A stretch of DNA of 61,910 bases from a virus. Taxonomy: Duplodnaviria; Caudoviricetes. The notes beneath the pieces were generated by a model. It made no database searches. It saw nothing but the letters and a program-made list of their open reading frames with translations, and was not told the origin of the DNA. The DNA is taken from IMG/VR virus record IMGVR_UViG_3300000234_000005, positions 1-61,910 of that record, one strand, 5' to 3'. Both the position numbers and the translations under genes were made by a program. Below are positions 28,931 to 33,267 of the stretch, in pieces (the first letter of the stretch is position 1; each line of letters opens with the position of its first letter).

Positions 28931-30340
28931 ATGAACACTTTCGTATCCGCCATTGGCAAACCTGAATCTGGCAAAACCACCACAACTAATGATGCAATCA
29001 CTCGCAAAAGCTCCATGAGCCATCTTGTAGACTTCTTCTACTCAATGGGCGCATCTCGTAACAAAACCCCTCTCGAACGCTTTCAGGCGTTTCTACCAGC
29101 ATATCAATCCGAACCTAATCTAACTCTTCGCACACTTCTATACTTGCGCGACGTACGGGGCGGTATGGGTGAGCGTAATTATTTCCGTGAACTCCTAATC
29201 GAACTAACTCGACTTAATCAGGAAGACGCTCTAAAACTAATCCCACTAATTAAAGAAGTTGGTCGTGCTGATGATCTATTTTCATTTGTAGGAACACCCC
29301 TCGAACTTGAAGCTCTTACTGAATTTGTTACTCAACTTAAAGCTGGTAACAAGCTATTCTTCAAATGGACTCCACGCGAAAATTCATCTAAGCGCCAAAT
29401 TGCCAGCAAACTCCGCAAACAACTTGGCATGACACCTAAGCAATATCGCAAATTCTTAGTTGAGAACACCACAGTAGTTGAAACTCCTATGTGTGCTCGT
29501 AAATGGTCTGATATTGTATATTCTCATGTCCCAAGCCAAGCTGCTCGTATTTACTCGAAAGCATTCCTTAATCGTGATGCAGAACGCTATCAGTCATACT
29601 TAAAGGATGTAACTAATGGCAAATCAACTATTAATGCTTCAGCTATCTACCCTTATGAAGTAATCAAAGGAGCTAACACAGCCGATGCTACTGAGCAAAC
29701 TAGAATTGTAACCCAGTGGAATGCACTACCTAATTATCTACCAGAAATTAACGTATTGCCTATGATTGATACTTCCGGCTCGATGGATTGTCCTGCAGGC
29801 AAGACTTCCGTAACTTGTCTCGAAGTTGCCATATCCCTAGGACTTTATGTTGCTAGTAAGTCTAAAGGAGCATTCAAAGATGTTTACATGGAATTTTCTA
29901 ATGAATCAACTCTTCACAAAGTTGAAGGAGACATCATTACTAAAATCAAATCACTTAAAAGTATTATTGCCAATACTGACCTAATTGCCGCAATCATGAG
30001 TATCCTTAGTTTCGGTATCAAGAATAAAGTACCTAATGAGGAAATGCCCAAAATATTGTTAATTTTCAGTGACATGCAATTTGATGCTCACTCATTCAGG
30101 TACACAACTAATAAAGAAATCGGACTAATGTACAAAAAGGCTGGATATTCTATCCCATCTATTGTATATTGGAATCTTAACGATCGCTCAAATGTACCCG
30201 TCAAACAGGACAAGAAGGATGTAGCGTTAGTTTCAGGATTTAGTCCAGCCTTAATGAAGACTGTTCTCGAATCTATTGATGATCTAACACCTGAGGCAAC
30301 TATGTTCAGGGCAATCATGAACCCTCGTTATCAAGTTTAA
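28931..30340 (+). CDS. Ro60/TROVE-related protein with C-terminal vWA domain (DUF2828-type), 469 aa
   Basis: Start re-assigned to ATG 28931 (AGGA RBS); LRDVRGGMGER, GRADDL, KWTPRE, YSHVPS, IYPYE, MIDAS motif DTSGSM, SDMQFD, WNL, VSGFSP. Confidence 0.85.
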   Translation: MNTFVSAIGKPESGKTTTTNDAITRKSSMSHLVDFFYSMGASRNKTPLERFQAFLPAYQSEPNLTLRTLLYLRDVRGGMGERNYFRELLIELTRLNQEDALKLIPLIKEVGRADDLFSFVGTPLELEALTEFVTQLKAGNKLFFKWTPRENSSKRQIASKLRKQLGMTPKQYRKFLVENTTVVETPMCARKWSDIVYSHVPSQAARIYSKAFLNRDAERYQSYLKDVTNGKSTINASAIYPYEVIKGANTADATEQTRIVTQWNALPNYLPEINVLPMIDTSGSMDCPAGKTSVTCLEVAISLGLYVASKSKGAFKDVYMEFSNESTLHKVEGDIITKIKSLKSIIANTDLIAAIMSILSFGIKNKVPNEEMPKILLIFSDMQFDAHSFRYTTNKEIGLMYKKAGYSIPSIVYWNLNDRSNVPVKQDKKDVALVSGFSPALMKTVLESIDDLTPEATMFRAIMNPRYQV

Positions 30341-30347
30341 CCCGCAT

Positions 30348-30428
30348 TAGGATAGCTACAGCAACCCATTAACAAAGGTGTGAGTTTCGACAGGTCTCAC
30401 CATAAACAAAAAGTAGGAAGCTATCCTG
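30348..30428 (+). ncRNA. ACAGCAA-motif RNA 4 (downstream of the Ro60-like gene)
   Basis: Closing stem TAGGATAGC/GCTATCCTG, motif TACAGCAA, inner hairpin GTGAG/CTCAC with a TTCGA-containing loop. Confidence 0.65.
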
Positions 30429-30476
30429 TTTACGTTGGTTAAACTATCTGTAAATTCAGATACCAGTTTTATATTT

Positions 30477-30511
30477 GCGGATGTGGCGAAATCGGTATAC
30501 GCAAGAGACTT
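30477..30511 (+). pseudogene. 5' half of a tRNA-Leu interrupted in the anticodon loop
   Basis: GCGGATGTGGCGAAATCGGTATACGCAAGAGACTT then unrelated sequence; no 3' half found nearby. Confidence 0.65.
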
Positions 30512-30565
30512 CATCTTTTACATGAAACTAGTAATTATATAATTTATTTACAGGAGTATATATTT

Positions 30566-30730
30566 ATGAGAGAACTAACATGTAAGAATTGTGGTAATCC
30601 AAGAGAAGTTGGCAGAAGACTGTGCGCTAAATGTAATAGTCAGAGAGTGAACTCTTACCCTAGATATAAATGGACTAACTTATCTTTTTCTTTATTTCTT
30701 GTATTTATTTTTTCTTCAATATTTTCTTGA
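30566..30730 (+). pseudogene. Truncated zinc-finger (endonuclease N-terminus-like) ORF
   Basis: AGGAG RBS; MRELTCKNCG...LCAKCN, then a T-rich tail that looks like a junction with an oppositely oriented gene fragment. Confidence 0.4.
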
Positions 30731-30906
30731 ATAAAAACGTAATCAACTGCATCTTTTAATGTCATTTCCATAGTAAATTTCTCTTATAAATAATTTATAT
30801 ATCTATTATAGCAGAAACCTCAATAAACATCTTGAGTTTTTTGTAATGTATGTTAATATTTACATATTAAAATAATTAATTTATTTAATGACATTATCAA
30901 TTATTT

Positions 30907-30985
30907 GGGAGCTTAGCTTAATTGGTTAAAAGCAGTCGATCCATAATCGACAGAGTCTCGGGTTCGAATCCCAGAGCTCCTACCA
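30907..30985 (+). tRNA. tRNA with CAU anticodon (Ile2-like or Met), atypical anticodon loop
   Basis: Cloverleaf with stem GTCGA/TCGAC and loop TC-CAT-AA (U32, C33); bulged T stem; CCA end. Confidence 0.8.
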
Positions 30986-31025
30986 CATTCATATTTTCTA
31001 CGTTTAATTTAAACGTAACTTTTTT

Positions 31026-31070
31026 GCCCTTTTAGTGTAGTGGATTCGCGCACAGAGCTTCTACCTCTTT
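31026..31070 (+). pseudogene. Truncated tRNA-Arg(UCU)-like fragment
   Basis: D arm GTGT/GCAC and AGAG-CTTCTAC-CTCT present; T arm and 3' acceptor strand missing. Confidence 0.45.
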
Positions 31071-31082
31071 AGGCCAGAATAT

Positions 31083-31170
31083 TTAGTCCTATAATACCTC
31101 ACCCGTCTTCTAAGCGGCCATTAAACGAGTAAATGTAGTATGTTGGTTCAAACCCAATCTACAGGACTAA
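31083..31170 (+). ncRNA. Non-canonical tRNA-like RNA (acceptor stem, T arm and UCU anticodon hairpin, no D arm)
   Basis: TTAGTCCT/AGGACTAA closing stem, ATAC/GTAT and CTC/GAG stems, CCGT-CTTCTAA-GCGG, TTGG-TTCAAAC-CCAA. Confidence 0.5.
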
Positions 31171-31213
31171 GTGTTTTAGCTACCTGCACTTTCAACAAAC
31201 AACGAGAAATCTC

Positions 31214-31471
31214 ATGGCTCTTTTTAATGTTCATGTTCAGCTCAATACCATTATGGTTGTCGAGGCAGGTGATGACGAAAAAGCAATCGAAGTCGCCCAA
31301 AATCATTGGGATGACGCCGTGCATGATGCCAACACCAAACCTGATGTGCATGTAACGGGTGAAGTATCAAGTACACTTGACTTGTGTGATGGATGGACGG
31401 AAGACTGTATTCCTTATGGCGGTGATGGCTGTACTAGTTTAAAAGACATAATTACGCCTAAAAGCAGTTAA
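31214..31471 (+). CDS. Hypothetical acidic protein
   Basis: 85 aa, GAG RBS, GW...CIPYGGDG motif. Confidence 0.65.
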   Translation: MALFNVHVQLNTIMVVEAGDDEKAIEVAQNHWDDAVHDANTKPDVHVTGEVSSTLDLCDGWTEDCIPYGGDGCTSLKDIITPKSS

Positions 31472-31533
31472 ACATATTTAATTACTTATGTTATACACTA
31501 TACACCATTCAAAATTAAGTAAGAGTACTTTCT

Positions 31534-31815
31534 ATGTTTGCTGTTTTAAACGCTATGCCCGACGATTATCTTTATGAAAAACATGTCTGCTTTTACACAG
31601 AGCCTTTAAATTCTTTTAAAAGCCAAGACTGTCTTCAGTTAATAGAAATTGTATTGGTAGGGTATCGTCACCCTGAAGCTCCTGATGTCGCCATCATCGA
31701 ATGTCTCGAAAGAAGATACTGTCATGAACAACCAAGAACCAATCTAAAAGCGGCTCCATTAGTTTTATTAGAAGCAGCTCAAAAACTTAAATTTAGTACA
31801 AACGAAGATAGCTAA
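31534..31815 (+). CDS. Hypothetical protein
   Basis: 93 aa ORF in the co-oriented run. Confidence 0.55.
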   Translation: MFAVLNAMPDDYLYEKHVCFYTEPLNSFKSQDCLQLIEIVLVGYRHPEAPDVAIIECLERRYCHEQPRTNLKAAPLVLLEAAQKLKFSTNEDS

Positions 31816-31866
31816 TTATTGACAAATAATTTTTTTAGCTGCACAATGTACATATAAACGTTTTAC

Positions 31867-31945
31867 CTGTGTGTACGTCAATTGGGAGACTACCCCCTTC
31901 TTTGGAAGCGGGAAGCTGCTGGTTCAAGTCCAGTCGCACAGACCA
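31867..31945 (+). tRNA. tRNA-Pro(UGG), irregular or possibly degenerate
   Basis: Acceptor CTGTGTG/CGCACAG-A-CCA, loop TT-TGG-AA, T arm intact; extra Cs and a mismatch in the anticodon stem. Confidence 0.7.
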
Positions 31946-31950
31946 ATTTT

Positions 31951-32027
31951 GCGGATATAGCCCAATAGGCAGAGGCATGAGACTTAAAATCTCACAAGTG
32001 TGGGTTCGAATCCCACTATCCGTACCA
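31951..32027 (+). tRNA. tRNA-Leu(UAA) with short variable loop
   Basis: TGAGA-CTTAAAA-TCTCA, GTGGG-TTCGAAT-CCCAC, ACCA end. Confidence 0.9.
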
Positions 32028-32106
32028 CTAAAAGACATGAAGGCGAACTAGCTAGCATAACTAAGTAGTGCTACAAGGCTTCATTCACTGCAAATTTTGC
32101 TACTTA

Positions 32107-32417
32107 CTTAACTGTAGGGGCAAATCGCCAGTTGTATCCAATACCACGTATCGTGTAATCGTGGGGCGTCAACACACGCACGAAACGTTTCTTGGACAAC
32201 GTAAACCAAGACCTTGCTAGATAAGGTACATGAATAAGTGAAGATTCTAGCCTAACTTTACATAATATAGAACCCGCCCTGCTGAACATTCCTTATCCCC
32301 TTGGAATGAATGCACACTGCGGCGTAAAGTGGAAAAAATGTTTTGCTGTTTGGATTTTTTTCTGGTCATATAAAACGCCCTATACCGTCAGGTGATGGTC
32401 ATGTTCGTACAGTTGAG
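32107..32417 (+). ncRNA. Unidentified ~310-nt structured RNA with tandem pseudoknots
   Basis: Terminal stem CTTAACTGTA/TACAGTTGAG, nested helices and three consecutive H-type pseudoknots; no convincing ORF; followed by a terminator. Confidence 0.65.
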
Positions 32418-32440
32418 GGGCTGTTTCTAACATGTTATTT

Positions 32441-32470
32441 AAAGACTCAGAAATGAGTCTTTTTATTTTT
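32441..32470 (+). terminator. Rho-independent terminator ending the tRNA/ncRNA cluster
   Basis: AAAGACTC/GAGTCTTT stem and T-run. Confidence 0.8.
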
Positions 32471-32553
32471 ATGACAATTGAAATATGCTCATTGATTTCA
32501 AGAGTTCATCTCAATTATTAACAAAAGTATCAAACATTTACTTATAAACTAAC

Positions 32554-32925
32554 ATGAATCAATACTTCAACTTTTTTAACTTAACCACTTTCTTCTTTGG
32601 TATGCTATGGCTATTTATCGGTGCATACAACCAAGTAGCCCCTGACTGGGATTACAGTATCAGTATCATTATGGGCTTATGGGCATACATCACAGCACCA
32701 TTAGCTATTAATTGGCTAAAAACTAAAGAACCCAAATTAGTTATCAGTGCTTTACTACTTACTTATTTAGGTGTTGATGGTTGGTATTTTTTGTACTGGA
32801 GCTATGTAAACCCTTCAGCACTATTCATGAGAGAAGTACAGTGGTTTCCTTCTCTACTGCTTTATACCCTAGCAGGAATTATCTGGGGAGCTTCTTCACT
32901 TTTTACCAAAGAGGTGAGAAGCTAA
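32554..32925 (+). CDS. Integral membrane hypothetical protein
   Basis: Four hydrophobic segments, APDWD motif. Confidence 0.7.
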   Translation: MNQYFNFFNLTTFFFGMLWLFIGAYNQVAPDWDYSISIIMGLWAYITAPLAINWLKTKEPKLVISALLLTYLGVDGWYFLYWSYVNPSALFMREVQWFPSLLLYTLAGIIWGASSLFTKEVRS

Positions 32926-33267
32926 TCCTTCCCCCAATCCCATAAATCCTTGTGCAGCTTGTGCTAAAGAAGGCTGTGATCTACTTTTAGTAGTACCAGC
33001 AACTTTAGCTGCTTGATAGCCCGGAATCAGTGCTACTAATCCTAAACTAGCCAAAGGATCTTCTTTTGCCAATTCTCTTGCAAAAGCTCTATGCTCGTAT
33101 TTAGCAATTGTATCTTGCGAAGCTTGATCCTTGGTATGTTCTCTCATTTCATACAGACTAGCATGGGGCATAGTTGCTAATTCATCGCCACTATATGCTT
33201 TATTCCCGTCTTGCACAGAATCTCTACCATTTATCTTACCTGCATATCTTATATTATCCATTATCAA
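32896..33267 (-). CDS. Hypothetical protein on the late strand
   Basis: 123 aa convergent ORF (YEHRAFARE...IPGYQAAK); AGGA RBS upstream of the start. Confidence 0.65.
   Translation of the reverse strand: MIMDNIRYAGKINGRDSVQDGNKAYSGDELATMPHASLYEMREHTKDQASQDTIAKYEHRAFARELAKEDPLASLGLVALIPGYQAAKVAGTTKSRSQPSLAQAAQGFMGLGEGLASHLFGKK

What the first reader, a model, noticed from the sequence alone, without database searches (positions are those of the whole stretch)
32107..32417. Unidentified ~310-nt RNA: long closing arm around a chain of pseudoknots, at the end of the tRNA cluster
Seen: nested long-range helices 32107-16/32408-17, GCCAG/CTGGT (32127/32362) and ATCCAA/TTGGAT (32136/32350). They enclose three consecutive H-type pseudoknots: CCACG/CGTGG with TCGTGT/GCACGA; ACGTT/AACGT with TCTTGG/CCAAGA; and CCTT/AAGG with GCTAGA/TCTAGC. 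Further hairpins follow (CATTCC/GGAATG, CACT/AGTG, ACCGTC/GATGGT), then a terminator. G.U pairs favour the plus strand. The pseudoknot ring recalls tmRNA, but there is no T arm, CCA end or evident tag frame. Large structured RNAs next to phage tRNAs are known (GOLLD, ROOL), but I cannot assign this one to either.
Basis: seen in the sequence. Interest (0 to 1): 0.72.

Follow-up and report, generated by a model that had tools for sequence, protein, structure and literature searches.

The report
Fused passenger RNAs after phage tRNAs
The flagged stretch is real non-coding RNA at the end of a phage tRNA operon, but it is two separately conserved RNA modules joined by a deletion, not one closed 310-base molecule; it belongs to the long-known, still unexplained class of stable RNAs that phages such as T4 and T5 carry among their tRNA genes.

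Summary
Three consecutive compact pseudoknot-type complementarities is more than shuffles give (0 of 500; criteria set after the fact). No Rfam family reaches threshold and ARAGORN finds no tmRNA.

The one relative with DNA in hand (L088, IMG/VR) changes the picture. There, module A (window 32123-32181) and module B (32182-32464) lie 375 nt apart, with two tRNA genes between them. The 10-bp closing arm has no partner in L088, and ATCCAA/TTGGAT carries a mismatch. The "closed 310-nt RNA" is therefore a lineage-specific fusion.

Both modules are strongly conserved. The module B core is 156/159 identical and module A 57/59, while shared protein genes are 51-76% identical and fourfold sites 26-62%. 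All three pseudoknot candidates persist in L088, one through a compensatory C-G to U-A change.

Best reading: passenger RNAs matured from a tRNA operon transcript, like T4 RNA C/D and the T5 stable RNAs. Function unknown. This is a new, narrowly distributed family of a known kind. The scan has flagged the same kind, though not this sequence, on other phage DNA before.

The parts
31819..31847 (+). sigma-70-like promoter (TTGACA, 17 nt, CACAAT) heading the tRNA/RNA transcription unit
   Evidence: Best promoter-like match in 30300-33000, 10 of 12. Consensus match only; not shown to be active.
31867..31945 (+). tRNA called Gln(UUG), with an enlarged (10-nt) anticodon loop
   Evidence: ARAGORN. Rfam tRNA 35.9 bits with a 10-nt loop insert. 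The L088 counterpart is a normal tRNA-Pro(UGG), 66/76 identical.
31951..32027 (+). tRNA-Leu(UAA)
   Evidence: ARAGORN, Rfam 65.8 bits. 75/77 identical to L088 809-885.
   Evidence: No counterpart in L088, which has five tRNA genes here instead. The best complement to the 3' arm anywhere upstream in L088 is 9/10 and lies inside tRNA genes.
32123..32181 (+). module A: conserved ~60-nt element with pseudoknot candidate 1 (CCACG/CGTGG hairpin whose loop pairs with the downstream ACACG stretch)
   Evidence: 57/59 identical to L088 1432-1490. Contigs of 3 of the 4 laid runs (X4, X5, X11) align to 32119/32121-32181 with unlike sequence on both sides. The pseudoknot is retained in L088 despite two loop substitutions.
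32182..32261 (+). module B, variable 5' domain: hairpin CTTGG/CCAAG, hairpin ACCTTG/TAAGGT, hairpin GTGAAG/CTTTAC; pseudoknot candidates 2 and 3 (or a GCUAGA/UCUAGC loop-loop contact)
   Evidence: 70/80 identical to L088. C32212-G32226 becomes U-A. 32259 and 32260 change one-sidedly and keep pairing. C32251U keeps a G.U. Both pseudoknots are retained in L088.
32262..32420 (+). module B, highly conserved core (hairpins CATTCC/GGAATG, A-run/U-run hairpin, ACCGTC/GATGGT, CGCCC/GGCG)
   Evidence: 156/159 identical to L088. Few variant sites in four runs. Only sub-threshold Rfam match: CyVA-1, 23.5 bits against a gathering score of 41.4.
32421..32470 (+). tail and intrinsic terminator (stem 32441-49/32454-62, GAAA loop, T run)
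   Evidence: Terminator scan. Two stem pairs covary in L088: C-G to U-A and U-A to C-G. The loose end at 32443 in run X9 shows the L088-type stem.

Best explanation
The flagged 310 nt are the non-tRNA tail of a phage tRNA operon: promoter ~31819, two tRNAs, then ~440 nt of RNA, terminator at 32441-32470.

This tail is not one conserved molecule. It consists of two modules that relatives keep apart. Module A is ~60 nt (32123-32181) and holds one hairpin-type pseudoknot. Module B is ~260 nt (32182-32440) plus the terminator. It has a variable 5' domain with two more pseudoknot or kissing-loop candidates, and a nearly invariant 160-nt core.

In this phage a clean 375-nt deletion abutted A and B. 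The deleted stretch held two tRNA genes, another small RNA and two hairpins. A lineage-specific spacer happens to supply a 10-bp complement to the 3' part.

Shown: the gene layout, the split arrangement in a relative, the conservation levels, the covarying terminator, and the absence of a conserved reading frame.

Inferred: the modules are cut out of the precursor by the enzymes that mature the neighbouring tRNAs (RNase P at tRNA 5' ends, 3' processing nucleases). Module B is protected at its 3' end by the terminator hairpin. Both accumulate as stable trans-acting RNAs, as T4 RNA C/D and the T5 stable RNAs do.

Guess: their task is tied to tRNA or translation upkeep or counter-defence. The same 12-kb region carries a Ro60-like DUF2828 protein, an AAA ATPase and an Rnl1 RNA ligase.
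For: Layout:
- ORF-free gap after tRNA-Leu, promoter-like site and terminator.

Relative L088:
- Window 32123-32181 matches L088 1432-1490, and window 32182-32464 matches L088 1866-2150. So A and B are contiguous in the window but 375 nt apart in L088.
- That L088 interval holds tRNA-Ala and tRNA-Gly.
- Loose ends at 32181 and 32185 in runs X4, X5, X9 and X11 fit the split arrangement. The letters before 32185 in X4 read like the L088 tRNA-Gly 3' end plus hairpin.

Constraint:
- ATPase 75.5% aa and 76.6% nt identity; 53% identity at 103 fourfold sites.
- Rnl1 51% aa identity; 26% at 66 fourfold sites.
- tRNA-Leu 75/77, module A 57/59, module B core 156/159, module B 5' domain 70/80.

Structure:
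- 3 pseudoknot candidates against 0 of 500 shuffles reaching 3. All 3 are retained in L088.
- One compensatory pair (32212/32226) and four one-sided changes that keep pairing (32152, 32251, 32259, 32260). Two compensatory pairs in the terminator.

No conserved coding frame:
- The 29-codon plus-strand frame from 32306 gets a stop through G32353A in L088 and in all 4 laid runs.
- The minus-strand 40-codon frame loses its ATG in X9 through A32368G.

Precedent:
- T4 rnaD and rnaC sit at the end of the T4 tRNA cluster, with roles unknown (PMC3014915, passage read).
- The T5 record annotates eight 'stable RNA with unknown functions' or 'tRNA-like' RNAs among its tRNAs.
Against: - No expression data of any kind.
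- Only one relative with DNA in hand, plus variant tables from four runs, so covariation rests on very few events. The RNAalifold model was fitted to the same two sequences.
- Module B alone is not more stable than shuffles (z -0.23 and -0.86).
- As drawn, pseudoknots 2 and 3 have no loop-1 nucleotide, which is sterically doubtful (my own knowledge of H-type geometry). Nested hairpins with loop-loop contacts explain the same complementarity.
- In the core, 2 of 8 variable sites (32370, 32372) break a predicted, weak UAUA/UAUA helix.
- Near-identity of the core could come from recent exchange of the tRNA region between phages instead of selection on an RNA.
- No sequence similarity to T4 rnaC/rnaD: local score 21 against a shuffle mean of 23.8. 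The core model finds nothing in the T5 or T4 tRNA regions beyond 12.5 bits. The analogy is therefore positional only.
Confidence: 0.6

Rival explanations
1. First reader's reading, restricted to this lineage. After the deletion, the fused A+B transcript became one functional closed RNA of ~310 nt, held by the 10-bp arm, GCCAG/CUGGU and AUCCAA/UUGGAU around a chain of three pseudoknots. A variant: A and B normally associate in trans through the two inner helices, as the pieces of two-piece tmRNA do.
For: - The 311-nt stretch folds better than shuffles only when taken whole: z -2.56, against -0.23 for module B alone.
- GCCAG/CTGGT is unchanged in L088.
- The window alone has G at 32353, which makes ATCCAA/TTGGAT perfect. 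L088 and all 4 laid runs have A there.
- Runs X1-X3 hold 88-95% of the sampled words of the queried stretch 31850-32480, which spans the junction, so the window's version may exist in more than one sample.
Against: - The 5' arm lies in a spacer with no homologue in L088.
- A 10-bp helix with one G.U is expected about 0.5 times by chance in 400 nt (my estimate).
- ATCCAA/TTGGAT has a C-A mismatch in every relative seen.
- In L088 the inner helices would have to bridge two tRNAs that are excised.
- There is no variation within the fused lineage to test with.
Confidence: 0.12
2. No RNA function. The stretch is debris of a shrinking tRNA array (decayed tRNA-like pieces and spacer). It looks conserved because the tRNA region was recently exchanged or gene-converted between related phages, for example by homing-endonuclease-driven co-conversion as at the T4 segB locus.
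For: - The window has 4 tRNAs where L088 has 10 in 11 kb, so the array is being remodelled.
- In L088 the first 16 nt of the module A element equal those of its tRNA-Gly, which hints at a tRNA origin.
- The whole tRNA region, spacers excluded, is more alike than the genes.
- T4 and T5 carry homing endonuclease genes inside their tRNA clusters.
- Module B has no exceptional folding energy.
Against: - Conservation is patchy at the scale of tens of bases, and in a way that follows function. tRNA-Leu is 97%, module A 97% and the core 98% identical, but the module B 5' domain is 87.5%, the tail 78%, and the spacers cannot be aligned.
- The variable 5' domain changes in ways that keep pairing.
- The same blocks recur with different flanks in four runs from at least three studies.
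Confidence: 0.15
3. The core is a divergent member of a catalogued family (the CyVA-1 motif), or of another known class: tmRNA, HDV-like theta ribozyme, or type III antitoxin.
For: - CyVA-1 (RF02965) matches 32326-32415 over its full length at 23.5 bits, E 0.007 for the 453-nt search. It matches the same place in L088 at 22.6 bits.
- The loop word GUUUU.C.GUUU is shared with that consensus.
- At an 80% threshold, ARAGORN calls a permuted tmRNA in L088 1419-1846.
Against: - CyVA-1: the score is far below the gathering score of 41.4. Non-canonical pairs are marked in the outer stem and in the second hairpin, and the insert is 27 nt where the model has 15. Scaled to the whole window, E is about 1.
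- tmRNA: no T arm. The tag-like frame MHTAA is hit by substitutions at 32320 (L088) and 32325 (laid runs), the latter removing its stop. ARAGORN at default finds nothing. The relaxed call spans a complete tRNA-Ala and reuses the tRNA-Gly arm, so it is an artefact.
- Type III antitoxin: no tandem repeats.
- HDV-like families: nothing at E<=10.
Confidence: 0.05

Closest known systems
Phage T4 small stable RNAs rnaC (species 1, 139 nt) and rnaD (species 2, 119 nt)
   Same: Non-tRNA RNAs encoded at the 3' end of a phage tRNA cluster that, as here, begins with tRNA-Gln then tRNA-Leu. Function unknown (PMC3014915, passage read). About 260 nt in total, similar to module B.
   Different: No sequence similarity and no hit with the core model. 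T4 rnaC carries a canonical T-arm-like hairpin, as read; the modules here do not.
Phage T5 stable RNAs (RNAI, RNAIII, RNAIV, RNA2H, RNAX) and 'tRNA-like' RNAs (RNA1, RNA2, RNA3)
   Same: Annotated 'stable RNA with unknown functions' scattered among tRNA genes, 73-719 nt long and often directly abutting a tRNA. Same genomic niche and presumably the same maturation route.
   Different: No similarity found with the core model. The best T5 hit is 12.5 bits, at a terminator and not at any of these RNAs. The blastn search of the phage collection matched only tRNAs in the 40 rows listed.
tmRNA (one-piece and permuted two-piece)
   Same: A run of H-type pseudoknots next to tRNA-like sequence. In L088, module A ends in ACCA and lies upstream of module B, as the acceptor piece does in permuted genes.
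   Different: No T arm, no G3.U70 acceptor stem, no conserved tag frame. No ARAGORN or Rfam tmRNA match. The ACCA is seen only in L088, not in the window or in the loose ends of the laid runs.
CyVA-1 RNA motif (Rfam RF02965; Weinberg et al. 2017, PMC5737381, one passage read)
   Same: Full-length sub-threshold alignment to 32326-32415. Shared loop word in the first hairpin.
   Different: 23.5 bits against a gathering score of 41.4, with mismatched stems and a long insert. CyVA-1 RNAs average 78 nt, while this core is 160 nt.
HDV-like theta ribozymes beside phage tRNAs (Kienbeck et al. 2024, PMC10879173; abstract and one methods section read)
   Same: Pseudoknotted RNAs placed directly 3' of phage tRNAs, proposed to mature tRNA 3' ends.
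   Different: By that paper's definition the cleavage site lies within 5 nt of the tRNA end. Here the conserved modules start about 95 nt after tRNA-Leu, and 20 nt after tRNA-Gly in L088. No HDV-like Rfam family matches. By eye, pseudoknot 3 has no room for P3. The paper's descriptor is in a supplement I could not see.

Membership tests
tmRNA | tRNA-like domain: acceptor stem with a T arm and a 3' CCA | tested here: not met
   ARAGORN at default finds none in the window. No Rfam tmRNA family at E<=10 in 32028-32480. No GTTCRA-type T loop in the sequence. CCA follows module A only in L088.
tmRNA | conserved tag reading frame with a resume codon and a stop | tested here: not met
   The only Ala-Ala-stop frame (32310-32327, MHTAA) changes to Val in L088 (C32320T). 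It loses its stop in the laid runs (T32325A).
CyVA-1 (RF02965) | score at or above Rfam's gathering score (41.4 bits) | tested here: not met
   23.5 bits in the window and 22.6 bits in L088.
GOLLD / ROOL / other large Rfam RNAs | covariance-model match | tested here: not met
   At E<=10, nothing in 32028-32480 except CyVA-1 and one E 9.9 hit on the minus strand.
Phage tRNA-cluster stable RNAs (T4 rnaC/rnaD, T5 RNAI etc.; a kind, not a homology family) | non-tRNA RNA gene inside or at the end of a phage tRNA transcription unit, on the tRNA strand | tested here: met
   Promoter, two tRNAs, modules A and B, terminator, all on the plus strand. Same niche in L088. T4 and T5 annotations.
Phage tRNA-cluster stable RNAs (T4 rnaC/rnaD, T5 RNAI etc.) | accumulates as a discrete stable RNA in infected cells | not testable with these tools
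   Needs RNA data from an infection. The host is unknown.
Phage tRNA-cluster stable RNAs (T4 rnaC/rnaD, T5 RNAI etc.) | sequence or structure homology to the T4 or T5 RNAs | tested here: not met
   Local alignment to T4 rnaD+rnaC is no better than shuffles. Core model: no hit at those RNAs.
Type III antitoxin RNAs (ToxI-like) | tandem array of ~34-45-nt sequence repeats, each forming a pseudoknot | tested here: not met
   Tandem Repeats Finder returns 0 rows in 31800-32600 at minimum score 30. The repeat requirement is from my own knowledge.
Y RNA / YrlA (partner of Ro60-like proteins) | Rfam Y_RNA or YrlA match, adjacency to the Ro60-like gene | tested here: not met
   No such match in 32028-32480. 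The DUF2828/DUF7788 gene is 1.7 kb upstream. L088 keeps the modules in an 11-kb contig that shows no counterpart of that gene.
HDV-like theta ribozymes | match to the theta ribozyme descriptor, with the cleavage site within 5 nt of a tRNA 3' end | not tested
   The descriptor is in a supplementary figure (closed). Only Rfam HDV-like families were tried, with no match.

The most novel reading that the evidence does not exclude
The deletion that removed two tRNA genes created a new composite RNA. Modules A and B, which in relatives are separate molecules (or two pieces that pair in trans through GCCAG/CUGGU and AUCCAA/UUGRRU), are here one ~360-nt transcript. Lineage-specific changes close it into a single fold around three pseudoknots: a new 10-bp 5' arm, and A-to-G at 32353 that perfects the inner helix. 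That would be a caught-in-the-act case of a larger structured RNA being born by fusion of smaller passenger RNAs in a tRNA operon.
Probability: 0.1. Interest if true: 0.6.

Novelty: new member of a known kind. Interest (0 to 1): 0.35.

Why it matters
Phage tRNA clusters have been known since the 1970s to carry stable RNAs that are not tRNAs, and none has a known function. This locus adds a family with unusually clear evidence of constraint: the core is 98% identical between phages whose synonymous sites are largely randomised. It also shows that such RNAs are modular and can be split, moved and fused along with tRNA genes.

The neighbourhood offers testable partners. It contains a Ro60-like DUF2828 protein, an AAA ATPase and RNA ligases.

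The family is narrow: two IMG/VR contigs and a handful of soil, biofilm and cave metagenome runs. The host is unknown, so the practical value for now is as one more catalogued member. It also warns that long closing helices seen in one genome need a relative before they are believed.

Tried and rejected
Searches for more homologues that found nothing useful:
- blastn (distant mode) of 31800-32600 against 50,697 phage records. 118 records matched and 0 covered 80%. In the 40 rows listed, every match lay in query 110-230, the tRNAs.
- nhmmer of the RNA against 80 DUF2828 loci: no hit at E<=10.
- A two-sequence profile against all loci: only L088.
- Flanking 93-aa and 123-aa proteins: no relative in viral contigs, none in the phage collection, only itself among 5.8 billion proteins.
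- Exact-word scans:
  - A 21-mer of module A, which turned out to hold the two window-specific bases: 0 hits.
  - A 20-mer of the core in metagenome contigs: 0 hits.
  - A 17-mer of the core in viral contigs: 7 loci, of which only L088 is real.
  - A second 17-mer: L088 plus 2 GC-rich coding chance hits.
  - A 19-mer of module A: L088 only.
  - A 20-mer in genome contigs: 1 chance hit inside a transporter gene.
- ATPase alignment as bait: only L088 in viral contigs. Three distant loci in metagenome contigs, none with the RNA.
- Translated spurious frames as bait. The plus-frame piece found no candidate. The L088 minus-strand 77-aa frame gave 37 proteins at E<=1 among 42 candidates. All align over residues ~41-70, the antisense of tRNA-Gly. 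Six sequences were read and none is a module B homologue.
- Core covariance model R1: only the window and L088 among 86 sources (906 kb; next best E 0.55). Nothing at E<0.09 in 36 whole virus records, with one handle not held. Nothing at the T4 or T5 stable RNAs.

Other rejected ideas:
- Target search by complementarity. The longest exact complement elsewhere in the window is 12 nt, which is chance level.
- A small protein: rejected (see the For line).
- Relaxed ARAGORN calls (tmRNAp, intron tRNAs, mitochondrial tRNAs) are scattered and overlap true tRNAs. I treat them as artefacts.

Sequencing runs: no RNA holder listed. In the four laid runs, no contig covered 32034-32111 or anything beyond 32527. 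I draw nothing from that alone.

Papers: the supplements of PMC10690425, PMC5737381 and PMC10879173 could list this RNA or the theta descriptor, and I could not see them. They do not show that it is unpublished.
Full report
WHAT IS THERE. The window is an IMG/VR phage contig of 61.9 kb, estimated 71% complete. It carries two group I introns, four tRNAs, a Ro60-like DUF2828/DUF7788 protein, an AAA ATPase and an Rnl1 ligase. The finding lies in an ORF-poor gap, 32028-32553. This gap follows tRNA 31867-31945 and tRNA-Leu(UAA) 31951-32027 on the plus strand. A promoter-like site (TTGACA, 17 nt, CACAAT; 31819-31847) precedes the tRNAs, and an intrinsic terminator (32441-32462 plus a T run) ends the gap. 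The stretch is therefore the 3' part of a tRNA transcription unit.

CHECK OF THE OBSERVATION. One hairpin is a base off the position I first assumed; it sits at 32384-89/32394-99. The region has 3 non-overlapping candidates. 0 of 500 dinucleotide shuffles reach 3 (mean 0.2), 2 of 392 other 311-nt windows of the contig reach 3, and the minus strand has none. The 311 nt fold with z = -2.56 on the plus strand and -0.86 on the minus strand. Rfam at gathering thresholds finds nothing here. At E<=10 the only notable match is CyVA-1, at 23.5 bits against a gathering score of 41.4. ARAGORN finds no tmRNA.

RELATIVES. Most searches failed; they are listed under Tried and rejected. A 17-mer of the core found one true relative in IMG/VR, L088, an 11-kb contig. 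Its proteins are 51-76% identical to the window's and lie in a different gene order. Public runs also hold relatives. I laid four of them, labelled soil, biofilm and cave metagenomes.

THE RELATIVE SPLITS THE RNA IN TWO. Window 32123-32181 (module A) aligns to L088 1432-1490. Window 32182-32464 (module B) aligns to L088 1866-2150. The two modules touch in the window, but in L088 they are separated by 375 nt. That interval contains a hairpin, tRNA-Ala, a ~170-nt non-tRNA stretch, tRNA-Gly and another hairpin. The best complement to the conserved 3' arm anywhere upstream in L088 is 9 of 10 and lies inside tRNA genes. ATCCAA/TTGGAT acquires a C-A mismatch in L088. All four laid runs carry the G32353A change that causes this mismatch. 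Contigs of the laid runs break at 32181 and 32185, with foreign sequence beyond. The letters before 32185 in X4 read like the tRNA-Gly end and hairpin of L088. The split layout is therefore the common one, and the window's layout is most simply a clean deletion. A 10-bp helix with one G.U is expected about 0.5 times by chance in 400 nt (my estimate). I conclude that the closing arm, and with it the single closed 310-nt RNA, is not a conserved feature.

BOTH MODULES ARE UNDER STRONG CONSTRAINT. The figures below compare the window with L088:
- The ATPase gene is 76.6% identical in nucleotides, and 53% at 103 fourfold sites.
- Rnl1 is 26% identical at 66 fourfold sites.
- Two other shared genes are 37-62% identical at fourfold sites.
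- tRNA-Leu is 75/77 identical and module A 57/59.
- The module B core (32262-32420) is 156/159 identical, its 5' domain 70/80, and the tail with terminator 39/50.
- The four runs add only six more variable sites in the core.

No reading frame explains this conservation. The 29-codon plus-strand frame gets a stop in every relative, and the 40-codon minus-strand frame loses its start in X9. Recent exchange of the tRNA region is a possible alternative. However, conservation varies over tens of bases in step with the modules, and the flanks differ among the lineages.

STRUCTURE. All three pseudoknot candidates persist in L088 under the same criteria:
- Pseudoknot 1: two adjacent loop substitutions shift the register against the downstream ACACAC stretch and keep the pairing.
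- Pseudoknot 3: stem 1 shows a compensatory C-G to U-A change (32212/32226), and stem 2 shows a C-to-U opposite G.
- Pseudoknot 2: it loses only a terminal pair.

RNAalifold on the two sequences gives a nested alternative. It has hairpins CTTGG/CCAAG, ACCTTG/TAAGGT and GTGAAG/CTTTAC; the last has two one-sided changes that keep pairing. In this model, pseudoknot 3 stem 2 becomes a loop-loop contact (GCUAGA/UCUAGC). A second 6-bp loop-loop complement (CCCCUU 32297-302 with GAGGGG 32415-420) appears, but both strands are invariant, so it is untested.

Weaknesses of the structural case:
- The model is fitted to the data it is judged on.
- Module B alone is not unusually stable.
- Pseudoknots 2 and 3 as drawn have no loop-1 nucleotide.
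- Two variant sites break the weak UAUA/UAUA helix.
- The terminator covaries at two pairs, which shows only that the terminator is real.

WHAT IT IS LIKE. T4 ends its tRNA cluster, which like this one starts with tRNA-Gln then tRNA-Leu, with rnaD and rnaC, "small, stable RNA". A review states their roles are unknown (PMC3014915, passage). The T5 record lists eight stable or tRNA-like RNAs of unknown function among its tRNAs. The present modules occupy the same niche. They share no detectable sequence or model similarity with those RNAs. Membership in tmRNA, CyVA-1, type III antitoxins and Y RNAs was tested and not met. Theta ribozymes could not be tested properly because the descriptor is in a closed supplement.

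In L088 the module A element looks tRNA-derived. It is 74 nt long, its first 16 nt are identical to those of the L088 tRNA-Gly, 6 of 7 acceptor-like pairs can form, and it ends in ACCA. Neither the window nor the loose ends of the runs share the ACCA, so I leave its origin open.

MECHANISM AND ODDS. Most likely (0.6), modules A and B are passenger RNAs released from the tRNA precursor by the tRNA-processing nucleases. They are probably stabilised by compact pseudoknotted folds and, for module B, by the terminator hairpin. They would act in trans on an unknown partner. The gene layout and the conservation are shown; processing, stability and trans action are inferred. A lineage-specific functional fusion gets 0.12, no RNA function 0.15, and a known family 0.05.

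NOVELTY. The sequence family is uncatalogued and narrow: 2 IMG/VR contigs, and 14 listed runs of which 3 hold most of the stretch. The kind is old. Earlier notes of this scan describe several other unidentified, often pseudoknotted RNAs in phage tRNA clusters on other DNA, and none shares sequence with this one. Interest: modest.

Noticed in passing
window 31867-31945: The first tRNA of the operon has a 10-nt anticodon loop (UUCUUUGGAA), is called Gln(UUG) by ARAGORN and scores only 35.9 bits. Its L088 counterpart is a canonical tRNA-Pro(UGG). A 291-nt contig that matches 31854-31946 with one difference is present at high depth in runs X4 and X5. It could be an odd decoder or a damaged gene.
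   Followed up: partly
It also has a T-arm-like GGGGTTCAAATCCCC hairpin. This stretch is part of what the window has lost.
   Followed up: no
L088 1419-1492: A 74-nt element around module A. Its first 16 nt are identical to those of the tRNA-Gly at 1773-1788, and it ends in ACCA. Neither ARAGORN (default) nor the Rfam tRNA model calls it a tRNA. At an 80% threshold, ARAGORN strings it together with tRNA-Gly as a 'permuted tmRNA', which I take to be an artefact.
   Followed up: partly
L092 1-840: Upstream of a 52%-identical homologue of the AAA ATPase lies 840 nt without called tRNAs. It holds several T-arm-like hairpins, two of them followed by ...ACCA (around 540-570 and 720-750), which look like unconventional tRNA-like RNAs.
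   Followed up: no
window 21855-22156 and 22699-22943: Two group I introns above Rfam's gathering score (82.3 and 74.8 bits), 540 nt apart on the plus strand, near or within ORFs 20844-21965 and 22213-22710.
   Followed up: no
L088 2172-2199: A perfect TTGACA, 16 nt, TATAAT promoter lies directly after the module B terminator in L088. So the RNA unit ends at the terminator and a new unit starts. The window has no such site in the same place.
   Followed up: no
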